DNA from: Candidatus Megaera endosymbiont of Nemacystus decipiens
Lineage (GTDB): Bacteria; Pseudomonadota; Alphaproteobacteria; Rickettsiales; Rickettsiaceae
Reading direction: 5' to 3'
Length of the DNA: 64,000 bases
NCBI GenBank assembly: GCA_030036605.1
Contig: DAOTRE010000004.1
Location: 146,123 to 210,122 of the forward strand
Part shown: piece by piece, positions 6,643 through 57,157 of the stretch
Numbering within the stretch: position 1 is the first letter of the stretch
Layout of the letters: every line of letters begins with the position of its first letter
The notes under the pieces: model-generated
Told to the model about the DNA's origin: nothing
The model's database searches: none
Seen by the model: only the letters and a program-made list of their open reading frames with translations
Translations under genes and position numbers: made by a program

Positions 6643-9600
6643 ATGAAGAAAGAAAAAAGAAATAGAATTCTAGCTACTGCTTCAGCTTTAGCAGTAATTA
6701 CTAGCGCTGCTAGTGCTCAAGGTGCTTTGTTTAGTAGCACAGGGGGTAGTGTGACTTTAGAAAATGGAGTTAATACTCTTAACAGTACTGGTGTTGCTAC
6801 ACCTTGGACTCCGGGTGATTCTTTTAGATCAGATACCAATGACTCCATAAGTTTTGGTAATGCTGCTGGTGATGGTGTAACAGTGGGGACTTATGATTCA
6901 AATAATCAAGGCGTTATTAGCCTGGTTATGTCTAAAGATTCGTCGATCGGTTCAATTATTAATTCTACTGGTTCAGACGGAAGCACTATGACAGTGAATA
7001 ATGATATTGAATTCACCGCTAGCGGTGCTAATGGTCTTAATGGAGCTGGCAATACCCAAGTGGGAGGAGATTTTTCTGGTCTTTCTGGGGTTACTCTAGG
7101 TTCTGGCGGTGGTGGAGCTGAGTTAAGTATTGGGGCTGATTCTGTCTTTACTGGTACTGTTGATTCAGATGCAAATGAAGATGGTGTAATACAGGTATCT
7201 GGAGGTGCTGAAGCAACTTTTGGTTCAGATGTAGGTGCTCTGCAGTCTATTGGCAGCTTTGTTGTTGCTGACGGATCTACTGCTAATTTTCAGGGCAATG
7301 CAACATCATCAGAATTTGAATTAGATGGTACTAACTCAAGAATCAATGTTTCTAACGGTAAGTCAATTAATGGAACTATAGATGGCGAAAATAATTTTAA
7401 TGGTAGATTAAACTTTCTGCAAGATGGAAGTGCAACTGGTGCAATTGGTAGTTCCGAGGCGCTAAAAGAAGTAATTGTTGGAACTGGTGCAGCAAGTTTT
7501 GATTCTACAGTTGCTACTGAAACACTGTCAATTGGTTCAGGTTCAGCAAATTTAAGTGACAATTTAACAGGTAATACTAATTTCACTGCAGATGGAACTT
7601 TGAATGTTGCAAATGGTGTGGCAGTTGATGGAGCTATTACTACTAATACAAATAACACTGGTAATGTAGTTTTTGCTGCTGATGGCTCTGTAAGCAAAGC
7701 TTTAGGTACATCAACTAATGCATTAAAGAAAGTTGAACTAACAGGAACTGGCACTGTTCAATTAAACAATGCTTCAGCTACATCACATTATGCTTCAAAT
7801 TTCTTATTTAAAGATAATGATGCGGTATTAGAACTAGCTGCAGATCATTCTATAAATGGCACTCTTTCAGCAGATGCTGATGGTAACGGTCAAGTTACAT
7901 TTTTGGCAGGAGGATCTGTCAACGGAACAATTGGAACTACTACTAATAAAATAGGTTCTGTTGAGTCTCAAACAGCAGCTGTGAATATTGCTTCAGGTGA
8001 TCACCATGTTGCGAATGGTTTCAAGGTTGCTAACGCTGCTGAAGCAGGTTTTACATTTGCAGATGGAGCTAACATAAACGGTAATGTTGTTACAGCTGGT
8101 GCTAATGGTAAGCTTGTTTTTGCTGGTAACAGTACTTTAACAGGAGAGGCAGGATCCATTGGTAACGAACTAGCTAGTGTCAGTATTGATGGTGGCAATG
8201 ATAAGAAAGTTACTTTCAATGGTGTTGTCAATTCAACTAACACAACTATTACAAATGGCGCCACAGTAGAATTAGGAGCTAACGGCGGAGTACAAGGCGG
8301 CCCACTAACAATTGGAGCTAATGGCGGGTCCTTATTAATTACTGGAGATACTAATCATGATGTTAGTAACGTGAGTATAGTTGATCATGGTGATAATAAG
8401 GCTAATATCGAAGTTAGTGGTGCAATTGGAACTTCTGGAGCATTTAATGTAGCTCTTGGTCAAGTTGGTGATAACACAGTTCCAGAGCAATTTTTGGATT
8501 TGTTAAAAGTTAATGCTAATAATACCAATACAACAACTGTTCAGCTAGAAGATGGTTCACATGTTAAGAATATAGAGCTTCATAATAGTAATTCAGTTGT
8601 CGAGTTTAGTGCAGGAGCTCCAGGAACTTATAGAATAGGTGGTATTGCTCCTCAAAGTGATAAATTTGGAGAAATGAAGATTTCAGATGATTCAACATTT
8701 GAAGCTGCAAGTGATGGAAGCACTGTTAACTTTGGCAGCAAAGATCAAAAGCTGAAAAATTTAAATTTTGCTGGTGATTTTTCTTTATCATTAGGTGACA
8801 AACATAATATTTATACTGATGCGGTTACGAATAACGCTTCTGAAGGTGTAATAGATTTCTCAGGAACTCATGAATTCTATGGCAAAAATACTAATCCTTT
8901 AAGCGAGATAGTGCTTCAAAATGACAGTAATGTAACATTGATGACAGAAGTAAATGCAGATGACGTAACACTTAATAATGGGTCTGTCATTAATACTGCA
9001 AACAGAATATTTGCTGCTAATGGGATTAATGGAGCTGGTGTTGGTGAAGGAAAACTCCGTTTAACAAACACTGATCCTTTGGAAATAGCTAGCGATATTG
9101 GCTCTACTAACTTAGTGAATCAGATAGAGTTTGCTGGTGGTGATGTCAGCGTCGCTGCTGGCAAAACAGTCCTGGCTCAGGAGTTTGCTTTCAGCGGTGA
9201 TGCTGCATCTAGATTTACTTTAGATGATCAAACTGCTAGCTACACAGCAAAGTTCATTAACAATAGTCCAGAAGGTATTACTAATACAATAGTTTTGAAT
9301 CCTGCTATAGCAACAACTGAATTTGCGGCTGGGAGCACTATTGCTACCGAAGATTCTGGCGCTAAGAAACTTAATGTACAGATGGGTGATGGAGTAAATG
9401 CTAAAATATCTACAACTAGTATTGAAGGCGCAATCTTTACTACTAGCGTAGTTGGCAAAGGTGACCTAGAGCTTAATGCAGATGGTGTAATTCTAAACTC
9501 GATTGGCTCTTCTGAGCAAAGAATTGGCGCTTTGACGGTGACAGATAATGCTACTATTACAGATGGTATCTATACTACAGATATGAGTATAGCAGCTGGC

Positions 9601-11421
9601 AAAACTTCTACTATGGGAGGTACTATTAACCCTACAAATGGTATAACACTTGGTGCTGCATCTAATGCAGTATTTAGTGATGGGGCTATTATAGATGCAG
9701 AAATTAACGGAGCAGGTAATGTTTCAATGAATGCATCAGGTAGTTTGAAGCAGCCTATAGGTTCTACTACTCCTGTGACATCGCTAGTATTCTCAAGTGA
9801 TGATACTACGAACTTTGTAGTAGAAACAGATTCTATTACAGCTGACAGCGTTGCTTTCAACCAAGGCGGAGTGGACTTTAATGATGATACTACTATCACT
9901 AGTAAGGTTACTATGACCGCTTCTGATATTGATATTGGCGCGAGCAAAGTCACAATGGATGGTGATGTGTCAGTTTCTGGTGCTAATGAGATTTCATTTA
10001 ATGATCATGCTACTGATGGTAATGGACAAATTAACATTACTGTTGGTGGTGGTTTGACCGTGGATCCTAATACTACTGTTGCAGTCGATGTAAATGATTT
10101 AGCTGCATCGAGAATTGTAGACGGTAGCACCAGAGAGATAGATGTGATATTAAACGATGGAGCATCTGTCAGTAAGTTTGACCCTACTAAAATTAGCATT
10201 GTTAATAGCAACCTGTTCTTAAAGTATAATGCTGTATCCTCTAACGGTTTACGTATAGAAGCTACAGACAATACAACTGCCGCAGTTGAGTTATTAAGTA
10301 ATAATTTGAATGCAACAGATAGCGCTAATTTGACTAAACTGGCTGCTGCTCCAGCTGGAAGTAAAGCTTCTGGTATCGTTGATATTTTGGCTACTTTATC
10401 AGATGGTGAGGGAGGATTCTTACCACAGGCTACTGAAGCAGTGCAGCGCTTAAATCCTTTGAATAACGATAAAGTAAATCTTAACACTTTGATGTCAGTT
10501 ACTACAAGCCTTTCAACTCGCTTAAATTCTCAGTTAGTGAATAATGCAGGAGTTGTTGCTTCCGGTGATCATGAGGCACTATATGGTTTATGGGCTGTGC
10601 CTTTTGCTAGCACTACTAAGCAAAAAGAAGACGGTAGCTTTAGTGGATATAAAGCCGAGACATATGGTGGAACAGTTGGTGCTGACGCCAAGGTTAATGA
10701 GGATTTAGTACTTGGTGCTGCATTTACTGCTGCTAACTCAGAAGTTAAATATCGTGACTTCAAGAGAGGTGACAAATCAGACATTGATACTTTAGCTTTC
10801 TCTTTATACGGTAAGCAACAGTTAAACAATAAATGGTTTATGAACTCATTTGTTACATTTGCTAATAATGATGTAGATGTACGTGAGAATCGAGTAACAG
10901 GACCAACCACCTACGAAACTGTGCGCGGTAAGTATGACTCAATGATGTTCATGGCAGAGGCTATGTTTGGTTACAATACTCAGATGCACGGTATGTCATT
11001 GACTCCTATGATGGGCGTAAGGTACACTAGAATTAATGATTCAGGTTACACTGAGACAGGTGCTGTTAGTACAGCGAATCTTACTGTGCATAACAAAGCA
11101 TTCAATAGACTTGAAGCTGTTTTAGGCGCTCAAGTTAATGGTGGCAGTTACTACTTCAATAATTGTATGGTGATGCCAGAAATGCATGCATCTGTTAGCC
11201 ATGATATTATAGACCGTAGTCGTAACTCATTCTTTAATATAGATGGGGTTAATGGTTCTCTAAATTCTAGGAATTCTGACTTAAACAGAACGGTATTTAA
11301 CGTTGGATTTAGCTTGAATTCTGAGAATGGCATGATGGAATACGGAATTGGTTATGACGCTAATTTGGCCAAGAAAAACGTAGCTCATCAAGGAACGCTG
11401 AAATTACGTATTAACTTCTAA
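6643..11421 (+). CDS. Large autotransporter, Rickettsiaceae surface cell antigen (Sca; OmpA/OmpB-like) family
   Basis: 1592 aa; signal peptide; G/T/N/A/S-rich beta-helical passenger with degenerate G-x-IG-x-x-x-x-L repeats; VASGDHEALYGLWAVPF at the passenger/barrel junction; ~290-aa beta-barrel ending LKLRINF. Confidence 0.9.
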   Translation: MKKEKRNRILATASALAVITSAASAQGALFSSTGGSVTLENGVNTLNSTGVATPWTPGDSFRSDTNDSISFGNAAGDGVTVGTYDSNNQGVISLVMSKDSSIGSIINSTGSDGSTMTVNNDIEFTASGANGLNGAGNTQVGGDFSGLSGVTLGSGGGGAELSIGADSVFTGTVDSDANEDGVIQVSGGAEATFGSDVGALQSIGSFVVADGSTANFQGNATSSEFELDGTNSRINVSNGKSINGTIDGENNFNGRLNFLQDGSATGAIGSSEALKEVIVGTGAASFDSTVATETLSIGSGSANLSDNLTGNTNFTADGTLNVANGVAVDGAITTNTNNTGNVVFAADGSVSKALGTSTNALKKVELTGTGTVQLNNASATSHYASNFLFKDNDAVLELAADHSINGTLSADADGNGQVTFLAGGSVNGTIGTTTNKIGSVESQTAAVNIASGDHHVANGFKVANAAEAGFTFADGANINGNVVTAGANGKLVFAGNSTLTGEAGSIGNELASVSIDGGNDKKVTFNGVVNSTNTTITNGATVELGANGGVQGGPLTIGANGGSLLITGDTNHDVSNVSIVDHGDNKANIEVSGAIGTSGAFNVALGQVGDNTVPEQFLDLLKVNANNTNTTTVQLEDGSHVKNIELHNSNSVVEFSAGAPGTYRIGGIAPQSDKFGEMKISDDSTFEAASDGSTVNFGSKDQKLKNLNFAGDFSLSLGDKHNIYTDAVTNNASEGVIDFSGTHEFYGKNTNPLSEIVLQNDSNVTLMTEVNADDVTLNNGSVINTANRIFAANGINGAGVGEGKLRLTNTDPLEIASDIGSTNLVNQIEFAGGDVSVAAGKTVLAQEFAFSGDAASRFTLDDQTASYTAKFINNSPEGITNTIVLNPAIATTEFAAGSTIATEDSGAKKLNVQMGDGVNAKISTTSIEGAIFTTSVVGKGDLELNADGVILNSIGSSEQRIGALTVTDNATITDGIYTTDMSIAAGKTSTMGGTINPTNGITLGAASNAVFSDGAIIDAEINGAGNVSMNASGSLKQPIGSTTPVTSLVFSSDDTTNFVVETDSITADSVAFNQGGVDFNDDTTITSKVTMTASDIDIGASKVTMDGDVSVSGANEISFNDHATDGNGQINITVGGGLTVDPNTTVAVDVNDLAASRIVDGSTREIDVILNDGASVSKFDPTKISIVNSNLFLKYNAVSSNGLRIEATDNTTAAVELLSNNLNATDSANLTKLAAAPAGSKASGIVDILATLSDGEGGFLPQATEAVQRLNPLNNDKVNLNTLMSVTTSLSTRLNSQLVNNAGVVASGDHEALYGLWAVPFASTTKQKEDGSFSGYKAETYGGTVGADAKVNEDLVLGAAFTAANSEVKYRDFKRGDKSDIDTLAFSLYGKQQLNNKWFMNSFVTFANNDVDVRENRVTGPTTYETVRGKYDSMMFMAEAMFGYNTQMHGMSLTPMMGVRYTRINDSGYTETGAVSTANLTVHNKAFNRLEAVLGAQVNGGSYYFNNCMVMPEMHASVSHDIIDRSRNSFFNIDGVNGSLNSRNSDLNRTVFNVGFSLNSENGMMEYGIGYDANLAKKNVAHQGTLKLRINF

Positions 11422-11504: not shown

Positions 11505-11918
11505 ATGAAAAAGATCTTTTATTTATTAGCCATAATATATTTGACAGTTAATATCTCCTTTGCTGAGCATTTGGTTTCAGAAGAAGATGATTTATTAGTC
11601 GAAGATGAAAATTACTATTCAGAGGCTGAAATTATTATTTTAAATAGAATAACCTCCAAGCCAGAGAAGAAACTTATTAAAGCCAGCGCCCAGGAGTATT
11701 TCGGTAATTTATCAATAATATTGAATAAGTGTATCTCTGGCTCAGAATATGATGGATATAATGAGGCTTTATTTGTCACAATCAAAGAGTTTGATGATTT
11801 TATATTCAACGGATGGATTTTCCCCGGTAATATCTCTGTGAATTCATTTGAGCACCCTGTATATGAAATAATTCCATTAAAATGTAAAAAGTCTTTTTCT
11901 TCACAAGAAGATAATTAA
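11505..11918 (+). CDS. DUF2155-like exported protein
   Basis: Signal-peptide-like N-terminus; A-x-I-x-x-LN(R)IT, FGNLSI-x-L-x-x-C, IFNGWIF...NSFEHPVYEI-x-x-x-x-C pattern recalled for alphaproteobacterial DUF2155. Confidence 0.75.
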   Translation: MKKIFYLLAIIYLTVNISFAEHLVSEEDDLLVEDENYYSEAEIIILNRITSKPEKKLIKASAQEYFGNLSIILNKCISGSEYDGYNEALFVTIKEFDDFIFNGWIFPGNISVNSFEHPVYEIIPLKCKKSFSSQEDN

Positions 11919-12013
11919 TCTAAGTCTCTGGAGTTTTATTATTTCCAGAATAAATAATAAAATTCATGATTTTTTTGTTTTAACAAGAAGCTTTTTGTGG
12001 TACTAATTAGCTT

Positions 12014-12174
12014 AGGTACAGTTGACATAAGACATAATTCATCAATTTTATCGCTTTTGGCCTGCAAAAAGTACAAATTATTTAAAGTAGGAAAGCTACT
12101 TCTACAGAATTTATACTGTTTTCGCCTCAAAATCATTTAAAATGGATCAAGTGATTCTTATGTCAACAGAACCT
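12014..12174. repeat. 161-bp degenerate palindrome (MITE-like / palindromic element) upstream of ssb
   Basis: Terminal IRs AGGTACAGTTGACATAAGA (12014-12032) and TCTTATGTCAACAGAACCT (12156-12174) match 17/19. Internal arms stay in register to a central AAGTAG-GAAAG-CTACTT hairpin (12085-12101). Confidence 0.8.
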
Positions 12175-12207
12175 GGTTTGAATTATAAAATATAAATTAG
12201 TTAGATT

Positions 12208-12663
12208 ATGTCTGGAAGTTTAAATAAAGTCACTTTAATTGGTAATCTTGGTAGAGATCCTGAAATTAGAAATACCTCTGATGGTAGAGAAATAGCTAAT
12301 TTTAGTGTTGCAACTAGTGATACGTGGAAAGATAAAATGACTGGTGAGAAAAAAGAAAAAACAGAATGGCACAGAGTTGTAGTTTTTTCAGAAGGTCTTG
12401 TTAGAGTAATCAAAAATTATGTAAAAAAAGGAACGAAATTATACATAGAAGGTCAACTTCAGACTAGGAAATGGAATGATAGCGAGAATCAGGAAAGATA
12501 TACTACTGAAGTAGTTTTACAAAATTATAATTCTACTCTAATCTTACTAGATTCACGATCAGATGCCTCACAAGGATTTTCTACTGATTCATCACCAGCT
12601 AAGAATGATTCATCTAGCTCCAGCTTTGAAAGTAGCGATCTAGATGATGAGATACCTTTCTAA
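12208..12663 (+). CDS. ssb: Single-stranded DNA-binding protein
   Basis: SLNKVTLIGNLGRDPEIR, KTEWHRVV, and acidic C-terminal tip DDEIPF. Confidence 0.99.
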   Translation: MSGSLNKVTLIGNLGRDPEIRNTSDGREIANFSVATSDTWKDKMTGEKKEKTEWHRVVVFSEGLVRVIKNYVKKGTKLYIEGQLQTRKWNDSENQERYTTEVVLQNYNSTLILLDSRSDASQGFSTDSSPAKNDSSSSSFESSDLDDEIPF

Positions 12664-55705: not shown

Positions 55706-57055
55706 ATGAAAAATTTGTATAAAAATTCGTATTCTTTAACTAAGTTTTATCCCTTCGATGATGCAGGAACAGCTGCTAGAAAAAGCATGAATTTATGTGA
55801 TGAAATTATTGCAAAAGCATTTGACCTTAAGACAGGTCCTTTTGATTTAGTAAAACAAATTACGATACATAAGGATAATCCGGAAGCTTTAAAGAAAATT
55901 CGTAGTGATTACAAAGAAGAAATTTTCTTTTATACAAATATTGCTACCAATTTTAGAAAAATAGCAAATGACTTGTTTTGTGGAAGTAACTCATTTAGTG
56001 AAGAAGAAAAGCTTGCCACGGTTAATGAAATTCATTTAAATACTCTAGCTATTATTCCTGATGCATTACACGTAAAAAATAAAAATACAGATGATTTAAA
56101 AAAGCTATTAGAGATAGCCGAAGTGTTGTATAACAATCCATTTTTATCAAATGAAGTAAGGCAGATCATTTTCAATTTAGGAAAGAGTATTGCAAACAAA
56201 ATCGGTGAAAGTGAAATACAAGAAGAGCAGTATGAAGGACATGAAAAACCTCACGATGTAGCATTAACACCAAAAGGCTCTGAAATAGTAAAATACCTTA
56301 ATAGCTTACAGTTGAATGACCAAATGGTTGAGCAAGTGCTTTTAGAATTAGTAAGAGATTTTCAGCCAGGTGAAATTTATGAGGTGTTTTCGACTAGAAC
56401 AGAATTGAGAGGAAAATGGATTGATTTCGTTAGTTCTGCCGAATTGCCGGTGAGAGAGAAAAGGGCTCTTTATAAGCTTGTTGATGATCTTTTTGGTCAA
56501 GGAGAGAATATATTAAATTTAAAAGAAAATTATAAAGATATATTAGAAAGTGCCTCACCGATGCTAAATAATGTAAATTTTACTAATGATTTAGATAAAG
56601 CTAAGTTTCTGCATTTACTTTCTATAACAAATCATGAAACTCCTAAAGCTCAAGAGCTAACAAATGGTGAAATAAATTTTATTAATACTAAAATTAGTAA
56701 TTTATTAAATAGCAATTTGTTTTGTCTTTCTGATCAAAAAGGTTTGTCCCCTGAGTCAGAAATTGATTTGTATAAATTAATGGAAGATAGGGAGGCTTAT
56801 TTGGAAAAAGTGTCTTATGCACAAAATGCAGGCTTGTTGAGTCATTATTTTCCAGAAGATAGACAAGAAAGCTTAATTGTACCCGATGATTCCAATTTGG
56901 GAGAAACATTTAGACCAACTTGGGAAGCAGTATTATATAGTCAGATTAAAGGATTATCAGATTTTAACACAATAACCTATAGTATTCCTGGTGATATTTT
57001 TCCAGAGATTGTCAGTCCAGTAGGTTCCCTTGATATGATGCAGATAGAAAATTAG
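55706..57055 (+). CDS. Hypothetical protein (449 aa, acidic, helical; candidate effector)
   Basis: Long uninterrupted ORF with its own candidate promoter and terminator; no motif recognised. Confidence 0.75.
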   Translation: MKNLYKNSYSLTKFYPFDDAGTAARKSMNLCDEIIAKAFDLKTGPFDLVKQITIHKDNPEALKKIRSDYKEEIFFYTNIATNFRKIANDLFCGSNSFSEEEKLATVNEIHLNTLAIIPDALHVKNKNTDDLKKLLEIAEVLYNNPFLSNEVRQIIFNLGKSIANKIGESEIQEEQYEGHEKPHDVALTPKGSEIVKYLNSLQLNDQMVEQVLLELVRDFQPGEIYEVFSTRTELRGKWIDFVSSAELPVREKRALYKLVDDLFGQGENILNLKENYKDILESASPMLNNVNFTNDLDKAKFLHLLSITNHETPKAQELTNGEINFINTKISNLLNSNLFCLSDQKGLSPESEIDLYKLMEDREAYLEKVSYAQNAGLLSHYFPEDRQESLIVPDDSNLGETFRPTWEAVLYSQIKGLSDFNTITYSIPGDIFPEIVSPVGSLDMMQIEN

Positions 57056-57109: not shown

Positions 57110-57157
57110 GTTCTGTTGAGATGGAAATTACTTAATTAATGTTTATGTCAACAGAAC
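57110..57157. repeat. 48-bp hairpin sharing termini with the 12014-12174 element
   Basis: GTTCTGTTGAGAT...TTATGTCAACAGAAC; the 15-mer TTATGTCAACAGAAC (57143-57157) is identical to 12158-12172. Confidence 0.7.

What the first reader, a model, noticed from the sequence alone, without database searches (positions are those of the whole stretch)
12014..12174. 161-bp end-to-end degenerate palindrome between the DUF2155 gene and ssb
The whole stretch folds on itself in almost constant register (paired coordinates sum to 24186-24188). Terminal arms match 17/19; ATTTTA/TAAAAT, TTTTG/CAAAA and GTACAAATT/AATTTATAC pair internally; the apex is AAGTAG-GAAAG-CTACTT. A hand count gives about 57 Watson-Crick pairs over about 77 arm positions, far above chance even for AT-rich DNA. 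Many mismatches are C-C, A-A or A-G rather than G-U, which fits a decaying DNA palindrome (MITE, or an analogue of the Rickettsia palindromic elements) better than a selected RNA fold. Its sequence does not match RPE termini as I recall them, so it may be a new element family. It sits in the ssb promoter region and its left arm carries a perfect TTGACA.
Basis: partly seen in the sequence, partly recalled or inferred. Interest (0 to 1): 0.72.

Follow-up and report, generated by a model that had tools for sequence, protein, structure and literature searches.

The report
Small non-coding transposon upstream of ssb
The 161-bp palindrome in front of ssb is one copy of a small non-coding mobile element (a MITE, roughly 8-30 copies per genome) that carries the end sequences of an IS5-family (IS427-type) insertion sequence. 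It is an ordinary kind of genomic parasite, not a regulatory RNA or a dedicated ssb control site.

Summary
Window 12014-12174 is a long imperfect palindrome that folds far better than shuffled controls (z -4.6 to -5.5; 0 of 200 shuffles as good).

It is a MITE. The element proper is 12015-12173 (159 bp), flanked by TA on the left and TG on the right.
- **Copy number.** In assemblies of the source strain and of a 98%-identical strain, depth over exactly these bases rises from about 13 to 100-500. Contigs with different flanks all break at 12013 and 12174.
- **Insertion polymorphism.** The 98%-identical strain lacks the element at this site. A more distant relative has it.
- **Termini.** The 18-bp terminus GGTTCTGTTGACATAAGA is identical to the right end of 848-bp IS5-family (IS427-type) insertion sequences in other bacteria, and to both ends of 90-270-bp MITEs in Endozoicomonas and Acidobacteria. 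All of these sit between TA...TA(G) flanks.
- **Exclusions.** There is no Rfam match.

The "perfect TTGACA" belongs to the transposon end and is not a dedicated ssb promoter. A 48-bp relic with the same ends lies upstream of yidC (57110-57157).

No transposase partner was found in the source organism. Any effect on ssb expression is untested.

Verdict: new member of a known kind, modest interest.

The parts
12013..12014 (.). Left flanking TA (half of the target-site duplication). Together with the preceding T and the element's first G it reads TTAG.
   Evidence: Other copies align up to 12013 or 12012 and diverge before that (loose ends). All 16 two-ended relatives in other genomes have TA immediately before the left end.
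12015..12173 (.). The MITE proper: 159 bp, near end-to-end imperfect palindrome, no coding capacity of its own.
   Evidence: Depth rises from about 13 to 100-500 across exactly these bases in X1 and X5. It is absent from L001. Fold z is -4.6 to -5.5.
12015..12032 (+). Left terminal inverted repeat GGTACAGTTGACATAAGA. It contains TTGACA at 12022-12027, reading inward.
   Evidence: It differs at 2 of 18 positions from the right repeat and from the IS-type consensus GGTTCTGTTGACATAAGA. Contigs that align through this end show no variant at 12018 or 12020.
12085..12101 (.). Apex hairpin AAGTAG-GAAAG-CTACTT, the centre of the palindrome.
   Evidence: Sequence and predicted folds. The loop base 12095 is A, not G, in most other copies.
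12156..12173 (-). Right terminal inverted repeat, reading GGTTCTGTTGACATAAGA on the - strand.
   Evidence: It is an exact match to the right end of the 848-bp IS elements L119 and L122, and to ends of MITE-like elements in 46 loci from other bacteria.
12174..12175 (.). Right flank TG, the position where other copies have TA (followed by G).
   Evidence: Thirteen contigs in X1 and X5 match through T12174 and then continue with AG.... Right flanks TGG or TGA also occur in 8 of the 48 ends scored in the 46 loci from other genomes.
12163..12191 (+). Candidate hybrid promoter: -35-like TCAACA inside the right terminal repeat, a 17-nt spacer, and -10-like TAAAAT in the flank, 17 nt before the ssb ATG. 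Hypothetical.
   Evidence: Consensus scan, 9 of 12 matches, no more sites than in shuffles. No + strand site is found upstream of ssb in the element-free L001.
12208..12663 (+). ssb, the gene downstream of the insertion. Its start codon is 34 nt after the element's last base.
   Evidence: ORF list; Pfam SSB, E 1.4e-36. The protein is identical in the strain that lacks the element.
11505..11918 (+). DUF2155 gene, the upstream neighbour.
   Evidence: ORF list; Pfam PF09923, E 4e-13.
57110..57157 (.). 48-bp mini-palindrome with the same ends (GTTCTGTTGAG...TTATGTCAACAGAAC), 65 nt upstream of yidC. Probably an internally deleted relic of the same or a related element.
   Evidence: It shares the exact 15-mer GTTCTGTTGACATAA with the right arm of the finding. 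It is present at single-copy depth in X1, X5 and X6.

Best explanation
The palindrome is one copy of a miniature inverted-repeat transposable element (MITE) derived from, or parasitic on, an IS5-family insertion sequence of the IS427 type.

**Structure.** The 159-bp element (12015-12173) has no gene. Its 18-bp terminal inverted repeats are the binding and cleavage sites of a DDE transposase supplied in trans.

**Insertion.** The transposase inserts the element at a (C/T)TAG site and duplicates the central TA. This gives the TA...TA(G) flanks seen around other copies.

**History.** The family has spread to roughly 8-30 copies in this AT-rich Rickettsiales-like marine symbiont. Copies are gained or lost between closely related strains.

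**This copy.** It landed 34 nt upstream of the ssb start codon. The TTGACA in each arm is part of the transposon end. In the full-length IS, the right end also encodes the last residues of the transposase (...KSYVNRT), and the flanking TAG serves as the stop codon.

**Shown here:** palindrome, copy number, boundaries, flanks, strain polymorphism, and identity of the ends to real IS elements.

**Inferred:** mobilisation in trans by such a transposase in this organism, and any effect on ssb expression.
For: 1. **Multi-copy with sharp boundaries.**
- In X1 (the source strain; its contigs that span the two junctions are identical to the window) flank depth is 10-13. Depth over 12017-12168 is 99-381.
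- In X5 flank depth is 12.9 and depth over the element is 196-536.
- Each contributing contig has roughly single-copy depth (6.5-20).
- Contigs run into unrelated sequence at 12013 and 12174.

2. **Presence/absence between strains.** L001 (run X5, 97.8-98.4% identical over 18 kb) has GCTTAG-ATTC-AATTAT where the window has the element. TTAG is a canonical target.

3. **Ends identical to real IS elements.**
- The 18-mer TCTTATGTCAACAGAACC occurs in 46 loci of unrelated bacteria.
- Fourteen of these loci hold a complete element with both ends. L119 and L122 are 848 bp long, with two overlapping reading frames.
- The joined product of those frames scores 283 bits on NCBIfam transpos_IS5_3. It also matches Pfam DUF4096 and DDE_Tnp_1.
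- It is up to 79% identical to annotated IS5-family transposases on alphaproteobacterial plasmids, 76% for those of Agrobacterium and Rhizobium.
- The other twelve are 90-270-bp MITE-like elements.

4. **Flanks.** All 16 two-ended relatives are preceded by TA. Right flanks are TAG (19), TAA (6), TGG (5) and TGA (3) of 48. In X1 and X5, 13 contigs read CC|T-AG at the right end, and the left flank consensus ends in C before TA|GG. A 2-bp duplication, a length of 832-865 bp and frameshifted two-ORF transposases are the published traits of the IS427 group (PMC3281130).

5. **Same ends in the window and in a related lineage.** A second relic with these ends lies at 57110-57157. A decayed IS of this type with the same end exists in another marine Rickettsiales, Ca. 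Xenolissoclinum (L145).

6. **No RNA family match**.

7. **Precedent.** Orientia carries MITEs cognate to an IS5-family IS (PMC2575882).
Against: - No transposase gene with these ends was found in the source organism. None lies in the 64-kb window or in L001, and the rest of the genome could not be searched. Mobilisation in trans is therefore inferred.
- This copy lacks a clean duplication: TA on the left, TG on the right.
- The right flank differs from the empty site of L001 at 3 of 7 bases (TGGTTTG against TAGATTC). The empty site is therefore not a simple pre-insertion state.
- X6, a more distant relative (about 92% identical in the DUF2155 gene), has the element at this site. L001 may thus have lost it by deletion, which would show instability rather than recent transposition.
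- Copy number comes from summed assembly word depth. The arms may be inflated by cross-matching between left and right ends.
- No individual sequences of other copies from this genome could be retrieved.
Confidence: 0.9

Rival explanations
1. It is a member, or a direct analogue, of the Rickettsia palindromic elements (RPEs). These are about 150-bp palindromic repeats that spread in Rickettsia genomes and often insert in frame into protein-coding genes.
For: The size is similar (159 bp), the shape is palindromic, it is multi-copy, and the host is Rickettsiales-like (closest MurA 70%, from a 'Rickettsiaceae bacterium' MAG). RPEs are treated as MITE-like elements in a review (PMC10969869).
Against: This element has terminal repeats identical to IS5/IS427-type IS ends, and TA flanks, which places it with a named transposase family. 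This copy is intergenic, not in frame in a gene. No similarity beyond the ends was found in any collection searched.
Confidence: 0.04
2. It is a structured non-coding RNA gene or a cis-regulatory leader of ssb (6S-like RNA, sRNA or attenuator), with the hairpin maintained by selection.
For: The predicted RNA fold is strong on both strands (z -4.75 and -5.45), and it lies directly upstream of ssb.
Against: - No Rfam family comes near threshold, even at E up to 10.
- It is absent from a strain that is 98% identical and has the same SSB protein.
- It is present many times in the genome with unrelated flanks.
- Majority differences between copies do not restore pairing; for example, the family-majority C at 12147 breaks a pair that this copy has.
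- No RNA run holding it could be found.
Confidence: 0.03
3. The shared 15-mer GTTCTGTTGACATAA upstream of ssb and yidC is an operator for a DNA-binding regulator, and the palindrome is a pair of binding sites.
For: The exact 15-mer occurs twice in 64 kb. Both sites are 35-66 nt upstream of + strand genes and both are part of inverted repeats. Only 0.06 matches to the 18-mer at up to 3 mismatches are expected by chance, and 3 were found.
Against: The same sequence forms the ends of transposase-encoding IS elements and of MITEs in unrelated phyla. In this genome, whole 159-bp units are repeated, not only the 15-mer. The ssb site is dispensable in a sister strain.
Confidence: 0.03

Closest known systems
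IS5 family, IS427 group insertion sequences (for example IS1248 and ISPaes1 of Paracoccus; the 848-bp elements L119 in Sandarakinorhabdus and L122 in Reyranella found here)
   Same: The right 18-bp terminal repeat is identical. The flanks are TA within (C/T)TAG. An inward-facing TTGACA lies in the ends. Group traits follow PMC3281130.
   Different: The window element is 159 bp and has no transposase. Its interior is unrelated to the IS interior. It is therefore a non-autonomous derivative or hitch-hiker, not an IS.
mISOt1 and other MITEs of Orientia tsutsugamushi (cognate to ISOt1, IS5 family)
   Same: Both are small non-coding elements in a Rickettsiales genome that carry the terminal repeats of an IS5-family IS and have amplified to many copies (PMC2575882).
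   Different: The host lineage differs, and by that paper ISOt1 is closest to IS1381. No sequence comparison was made here. The cognate IS is known in Orientia but not in this organism.
MITE-like elements of 90-270 bp with the same ends in Endozoicomonas species and Pyrinomonadaceae (L115, L116, L123, L128, L130, L136, L140, L151-L154, L158)
   Same: The 18-20-bp ends and the TA flanks are the same.
   Different: The interiors show no similarity to the window element, so each lineage seems to have made its own MITE from the same type of IS end.
Correia elements (CREE) of Neisseria
   Same: They work alike: about 100-150-bp palindromic MITEs that insert at TA, sit mostly just upstream of genes, carry sigma-70-like promoter parts and can be co-transcribed (PMC10969869; the TA target is from my own knowledge).
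   Different: The sequence and host are unrelated. Promoter activity is demonstrated for Correia but only guessed here.
Rickettsia palindromic elements (RPE)
   Same: Size, palindromic shape, multi-copy spread in a Rickettsiales genome.
   Different: RPEs are known for in-frame insertion into genes (PMC10969869). This copy is intergenic, and its ends tie it to a DDE transposase family. Membership was not shown.

Membership tests
Prokaryotic MITE | Small size (tens to a few hundred bp) with no transposase gene | tested here: met
   159 bp. Only chance ORFs of 47 and 65 aa cross it. A search with the element-encoded 41 aa found no homologue.
Prokaryotic MITE | Terminal inverted repeats | tested here: met
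   The 18-bp ends match at 16 of 18 positions (17 of 19 with the flanking base).
Prokaryotic MITE | Multiple dispersed copies in the genome | tested here: met
   Depth is 8-40 times single-copy over exactly the element in X1 and X5. Contigs of single-copy depth carry different flanks.
Prokaryotic MITE | Target-site duplication flanking the element | tested here: inconclusive
   This copy has TA on the left and TG on the right. The family consensus from loose ends is C-TA|...|TA-G, and relatives elsewhere have TA...TA(G). Paired flanks of individual copies in this genome could not be read.
Prokaryotic MITE | Insertion polymorphism (filled and empty sites) | tested here: met
   L001 (run X5) lacks it at the ssb site. 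X1 and X6 have it. The direction, gain or loss, is unresolved.
Prokaryotic MITE | Cognate autonomous IS with the same ends in the same genome | not testable with these tools
   None lies in the window or L001. The source genome is not in the searchable collections. Laying the source assemblies on a Xenolissoclinum IS remnant gave nothing.
IS5 family / IS427-group derivative | Ends match those of IS elements that encode an IS5-family (IS427-type) transposase | tested here: met
   The right end of L119 and L122 equals the window's right 18-mer exactly. The transposase scores 283 bits on transpos_IS5_3 (cut-off 110) and matches DUF4096 and DDE_Tnp_1.
IS5 family / IS427-group derivative | 2-bp duplication (TA), as in IS427-group elements | tested here: met
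   Sixteen of 16 relatives are preceded by TA, and most are followed by TA. A DR of 2 bp is published for 11 of the 12 IS427-group elements in the part of Table 2 read (PMC3281130).
Rickettsia palindromic elements | Sequence similarity to one of the described RPE consensus families | not tested
Rickettsia palindromic elements | Frequent in-frame insertion inside protein-coding genes | tested here: not met
   Both copies in the window are intergenic. Other copies could not be placed.
Known structured RNA (for example 6S RNA) | Match to an Rfam covariance model | tested here: not met
   No hit at gathering score in the window. The best local hits have E 1.1-9.6 to unrelated families.

The most novel reading that the evidence does not exclude
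The insertion has rewired an essential gene. The outward-facing TCAACA in the right terminal repeat, together with the flanking TAAAAT, forms the only sigma-70-like promoter candidate upstream of ssb. Alternatively, transcription from further upstream puts a 159-nt hairpin into the ssb leader. Either way, sister strains with and without the element would express ssb differently. If so, a family of 8-30 such elements in a reduced symbiont genome would act as portable promoter or leader modules, as Correia elements do in Neisseria.
Probability: 0.12. Interest if true: 0.45.

Novelty: new member of a known kind. Interest (0 to 1): 0.3.

Why it matters
- **Annotation.** The element explains a conspicuous structure that could be misread as an RNA gene or an operator. 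It also marks a repeat family that breaks short-read assemblies of this symbiont lineage.
- **Genome dynamics.** It shows that a poorly sampled marine Rickettsiales-like lineage carries, or recently carried, IS5/IS427-type transposition activity. Gene-proximal copies differ between strains that are 98% identical, so they can serve as strain markers.
- **A general point about these ends.** The same 18-bp end is shared letter for letter by IS elements and independently formed MITEs in Alphaproteobacteria, Gammaproteobacteria and Acidobacteria. A likely reason is that the right end also encodes the C-terminus of the transposase.
- **Limit.** None of this changes current understanding of MITEs.

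Tried and rejected
- **Rfam.** Gathering thresholds on the whole window and E up to 10 on 11800-12400 gave nothing relevant.
- **Viral contigs.** I used it only to learn the limit.
- **Metagenome contigs.** Two family-specific patterns (22 and 23 nt) gave 0 hits each.
- **Plasmids.** Searching with the flanking genes and with the element itself gave only ssb homologues and chance short matches.
- **Spurious ORF calls.** A protein search with the 41 aa encoded inside the element, meant to find mis-called ORFs on other copies, found no homologue.
- **Orthologous spacers.** The DUF2155 protein has one relative at 98% (L001) and the next at 49%. The closest MurA relatives (70%) are not syntenic and carry no family member in about 52 kb.
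- **Contig ends.** I followed the end of the X5 contig hoping for another copy. It ends in a strain-specific divergent stretch after lon, not in the element.
- **RNA evidence.** No usable run was found.
- **Resident IS.** Laying the source assemblies on the Xenolissoclinum IS remnant to detect one gave nothing.
- **LexA-type SOS box.** I considered this for ssb. The alphaproteobacterial GTTC-N7-GTTC spacing (from my own knowledge) is not present in the repeat.

Full report
**1. The observation**

Window 12014-12174 reads AGGTACAGTTGACATAAGA ... TCTTATGTCAACAGAACCT, with the apex AAGTAG-GAAAG-CTACTT at 12085-12101.
- It is the top inverted repeat within 400 bp in the whole window.
- The left 77 nt align with the reverse complement of the right 77 nt at 59 of 81 columns. 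The score is 30, against -7.1 +/- 4.4 in 2000 shuffles.
- As single-stranded DNA or RNA it folds with z between -4.6 and -5.5. No shuffle of 200 does as well.
- The neighbours are a DUF2155 gene (11505-11918) and ssb (12208-12663).

The description is accurate and the structure is well beyond chance.

**2. Not a known RNA**

Rfam finds only RNase P RNA (25317-25732, - strand) and one tRNA (59726-59797, - strand) in the window. A permissive search of 11800-12400 gives only chance-level hits, E 1.1-9.6.

**3. A second site with the same ends**

The 15-mer GTTCTGTTGACATAA of the right arm recurs exactly at 57143-57157 (- strand). There it is the right arm of a 48-bp palindrome (57110-57157), 65 nt upstream of yidC. 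That site is present at single-copy depth in all three strain-level assemblies examined. It looks like an old, fixed, internally deleted relic.

**4. Polymorphic between strains**

An exact-protein look-up of SSB returned a Logan contig (L001, run X5) that is 97.8-98.4% identical to the window over 18 kb.
- In L001, window 12016-12177 is replaced by a single A. By the read-laying tool's account, 12016-12180 is replaced by ATTC.
- The empty site reads GCTTAG-ATTC-AATTAT.
- A more distant relative in run X6 (about 92% identical in the DUF2155 gene) has the element joined to ssb. X6 also holds a variant that lacks 12032-12130.
- The filled state is therefore probably older, and X5 may have lost the element. 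The right flank also differs between filled and empty sites at 3 of 7 bases. I leave the direction of change open.

**5. Multi-copy with sharp ends**

I laid the assemblies of X1 (the source strain, whose contigs spanning the two junctions are identical to the window) and X5 on the region at 80% likeness or better.
- Flank depth is 10-13 in both.
- Depth over 12017-12168 is 99-381 in X1 and 196-536 in X5.
- The individual contigs have roughly single-copy depth (6.5-20). They run into unrelated sequence at 12013 (or 12012) on the left and at 12174 on the right.
- The central part, which cannot cross-match between arms, suggests about 8 copies in X1 and about 22 in X5. The arms suggest up to 30-40.
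- Copies are mostly 90-99% like this one.
- This copy differs from the family majority at 12095 (G, others A), 12104 (A, others G), 12147 (T, others C) and 12151 (G, others A). At 12092 the copies are split.
- Most arm mismatches are therefore family traits, not decay at this site.
- Where contigs cross the ends, the flanks read C-TA|GG...CC|T-AG. That is a TA on each side within CTAG.

**6. The ends are those of an IS5/IS427-type insertion sequence**

The source genome is not in the species-representative genome collection. The 18-mer TCTTATGTCAACAGAACC nevertheless occurs in 46 loci from unrelated bacteria. These include several Endozoicomonas and Endozoicomonadaceae genomes, many Pyrinomonadaceae (Acidobacteria), Methylococcaceae, Sandarakinorhabdus, Reyranella and the marine Rickettsiales Ca. 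Xenolissoclinum.
- Fourteen of these loci hold a complete element with both ends.
- Two of them, L119 and L122, are 848 bp long and carry two overlapping reading frames.
- The joined product of those frames scores 283 bits on NCBIfam transpos_IS5_3 (cut-off 110). It also matches Pfam DUF4096 and DDE_Tnp_1.
- It is up to 79% identical to annotated IS5-family transposases on alphaproteobacterial plasmids, 76% for those of Agrobacterium and Rhizobium.
- A length of 832-865 bp, a 2-bp duplication and frameshifted two-ORF transposases are the published traits of the IS427 group (PMC3281130).
- In L119 and L122 the transposase frame runs to the very last base of the element (...KSYVNRT is encoded by the right end), and the flanking TAG is the stop codon. 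This may explain why the end is conserved letter for letter across phyla.
- The other twelve are 90-270-bp MITE-like elements. Their interiors show no similarity to the window element.
- Scoring both orientations of the two perfectly symmetric ones gives 16 two-ended records, and all 16 are preceded by TA. Right flanks are TAG in 19 of 48 ends, TAA in 6, TGG in 5 and TGA in 3.
- The window copy (TA on the left, TGG on the right) fits this pattern.
- L145 (Ca. Xenolissoclinum, 31% G+C) holds a decayed transposase gene that ends in the same repeat and a TAG flank. Marine Rickettsiales have therefore hosted this IS type.

**7. Interpretation**

The element is a MITE that uses IS5/IS427-type ends.
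- **Inferred:** mobilisation by a transposase in trans. No transposase is encoded in the window or in L001, and the rest of the source genome could not be searched.
- **TTGACA:** it is intrinsic to both terminal repeats and to the parent IS. The promoter scan finds no acceptable -10 at 16-18 nt from the left-arm copy.
- **Only promoter candidate:** the one + strand candidate before ssb is a weak hybrid. It combines TCAACA in the right repeat, a 17-nt spacer and TAAAAT in the flank (12163-12191, 9 of 12 matches, no more sites than in shuffles).
- **Element-free strain:** L001 shows no + strand candidate at the same thresholds yet encodes the identical SSB. ssb therefore does not depend on the element.
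- **RNA data:** no run that could settle this was available.

**8. Comparison with known systems**

- It works like other bacterial MITEs. The closest precedent in the order is the IS5-cognate mISOt1 of Orientia (PMC2575882).
- The closest functional analogy is the Neisseria Correia element, which sits upstream of genes and can supply promoters (PMC10969869).
- It is not shown to be an RPE. RPE sequences were not at hand, and RPEs are noted for in-frame insertion into genes, whereas both window copies are intergenic.

**9. Novelty and score**

The interior sequence matched nothing in the plasmid, viral, GTDB-representative or JGI metagenome collections at the sensitivities used. The family itself therefore appears undescribed. 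Its kind is well known, so I rate it a new member of a known kind with interest 0.3. The host is a poorly sampled Rickettsiales-like lineage: the closest MurA is 70% identical, from a 'Rickettsiaceae bacterium' MAG, and the window has 33.6% G+C.

Noticed in passing
window 57110-57157: A 48-bp palindrome, GTTCTGTTGAGATGG...TTTATGTCAACAGAAC, with the same terminal repeats as the finding, lies 65 nt upstream of yidC. It is conserved at single-copy depth in X1, X5 and X6. It is probably an internally deleted relic of the same element type. X6 also carries a 99-bp internal deletion variant (12032-12130) at the ssb site.
   Followed up: partly
window 11931-11946; L001 7628-9900: The 98%-identical strain has a 731-aa ankyrin-repeat gene (- strand) between the DUF2155 gene and ssb. 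The window keeps only 16 bp, which resemble the first 16 bp of that insert. X6 contigs also diverge at 11934 and 11959, so the window strain seems to have lost the gene.
   Followed up: partly
L119 5224-6071 and L122 659-1506; other loci L113-L158: The 18-bp end is identical letter for letter in IS elements and MITE-like elements of Alphaproteobacteria, Gammaproteobacteria (Endozoicomonas) and Acidobacteria (Pyrinomonadaceae). In the full IS, the transposase frame runs through the right end, and the stop codon is the flanking TAG created at the target.
   Followed up: partly
window 23383 onward; L159 1-158: Immediately after the lon stop codon the two strains stop aligning. The X5 contig ends in 158 bp of only partly similar sequence. 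This is another strain-variable spot that is not an element copy.
   Followed up: no
window 6643-11421: A 1592-aa autotransporter gene (Pfam Autotransporter on the L001 orthologue) with a long, repetitive, Gly/Asn/Thr/Ser-rich passenger domain lies just upstream of the DUF2155 gene.
   Followed up: no
window 55706-57055: A 449-aa ORF upstream of the yidC relic has no Pfam match. Its 3' end (56943-57024) is the most divergent stretch between the window and the X5 strain in that region: several indels, including a 6-base deletion.
   Followed up: no
window 25317-25732 (-) and 59726-59797 (-): RNase P RNA class A (292 bits) and one tRNA (68.6 bits) are the only Rfam matches in the window. By coordinate mapping, the 36-kb X5 contig should end near the tRNA, but its end was not fetched.
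   Followed up: no
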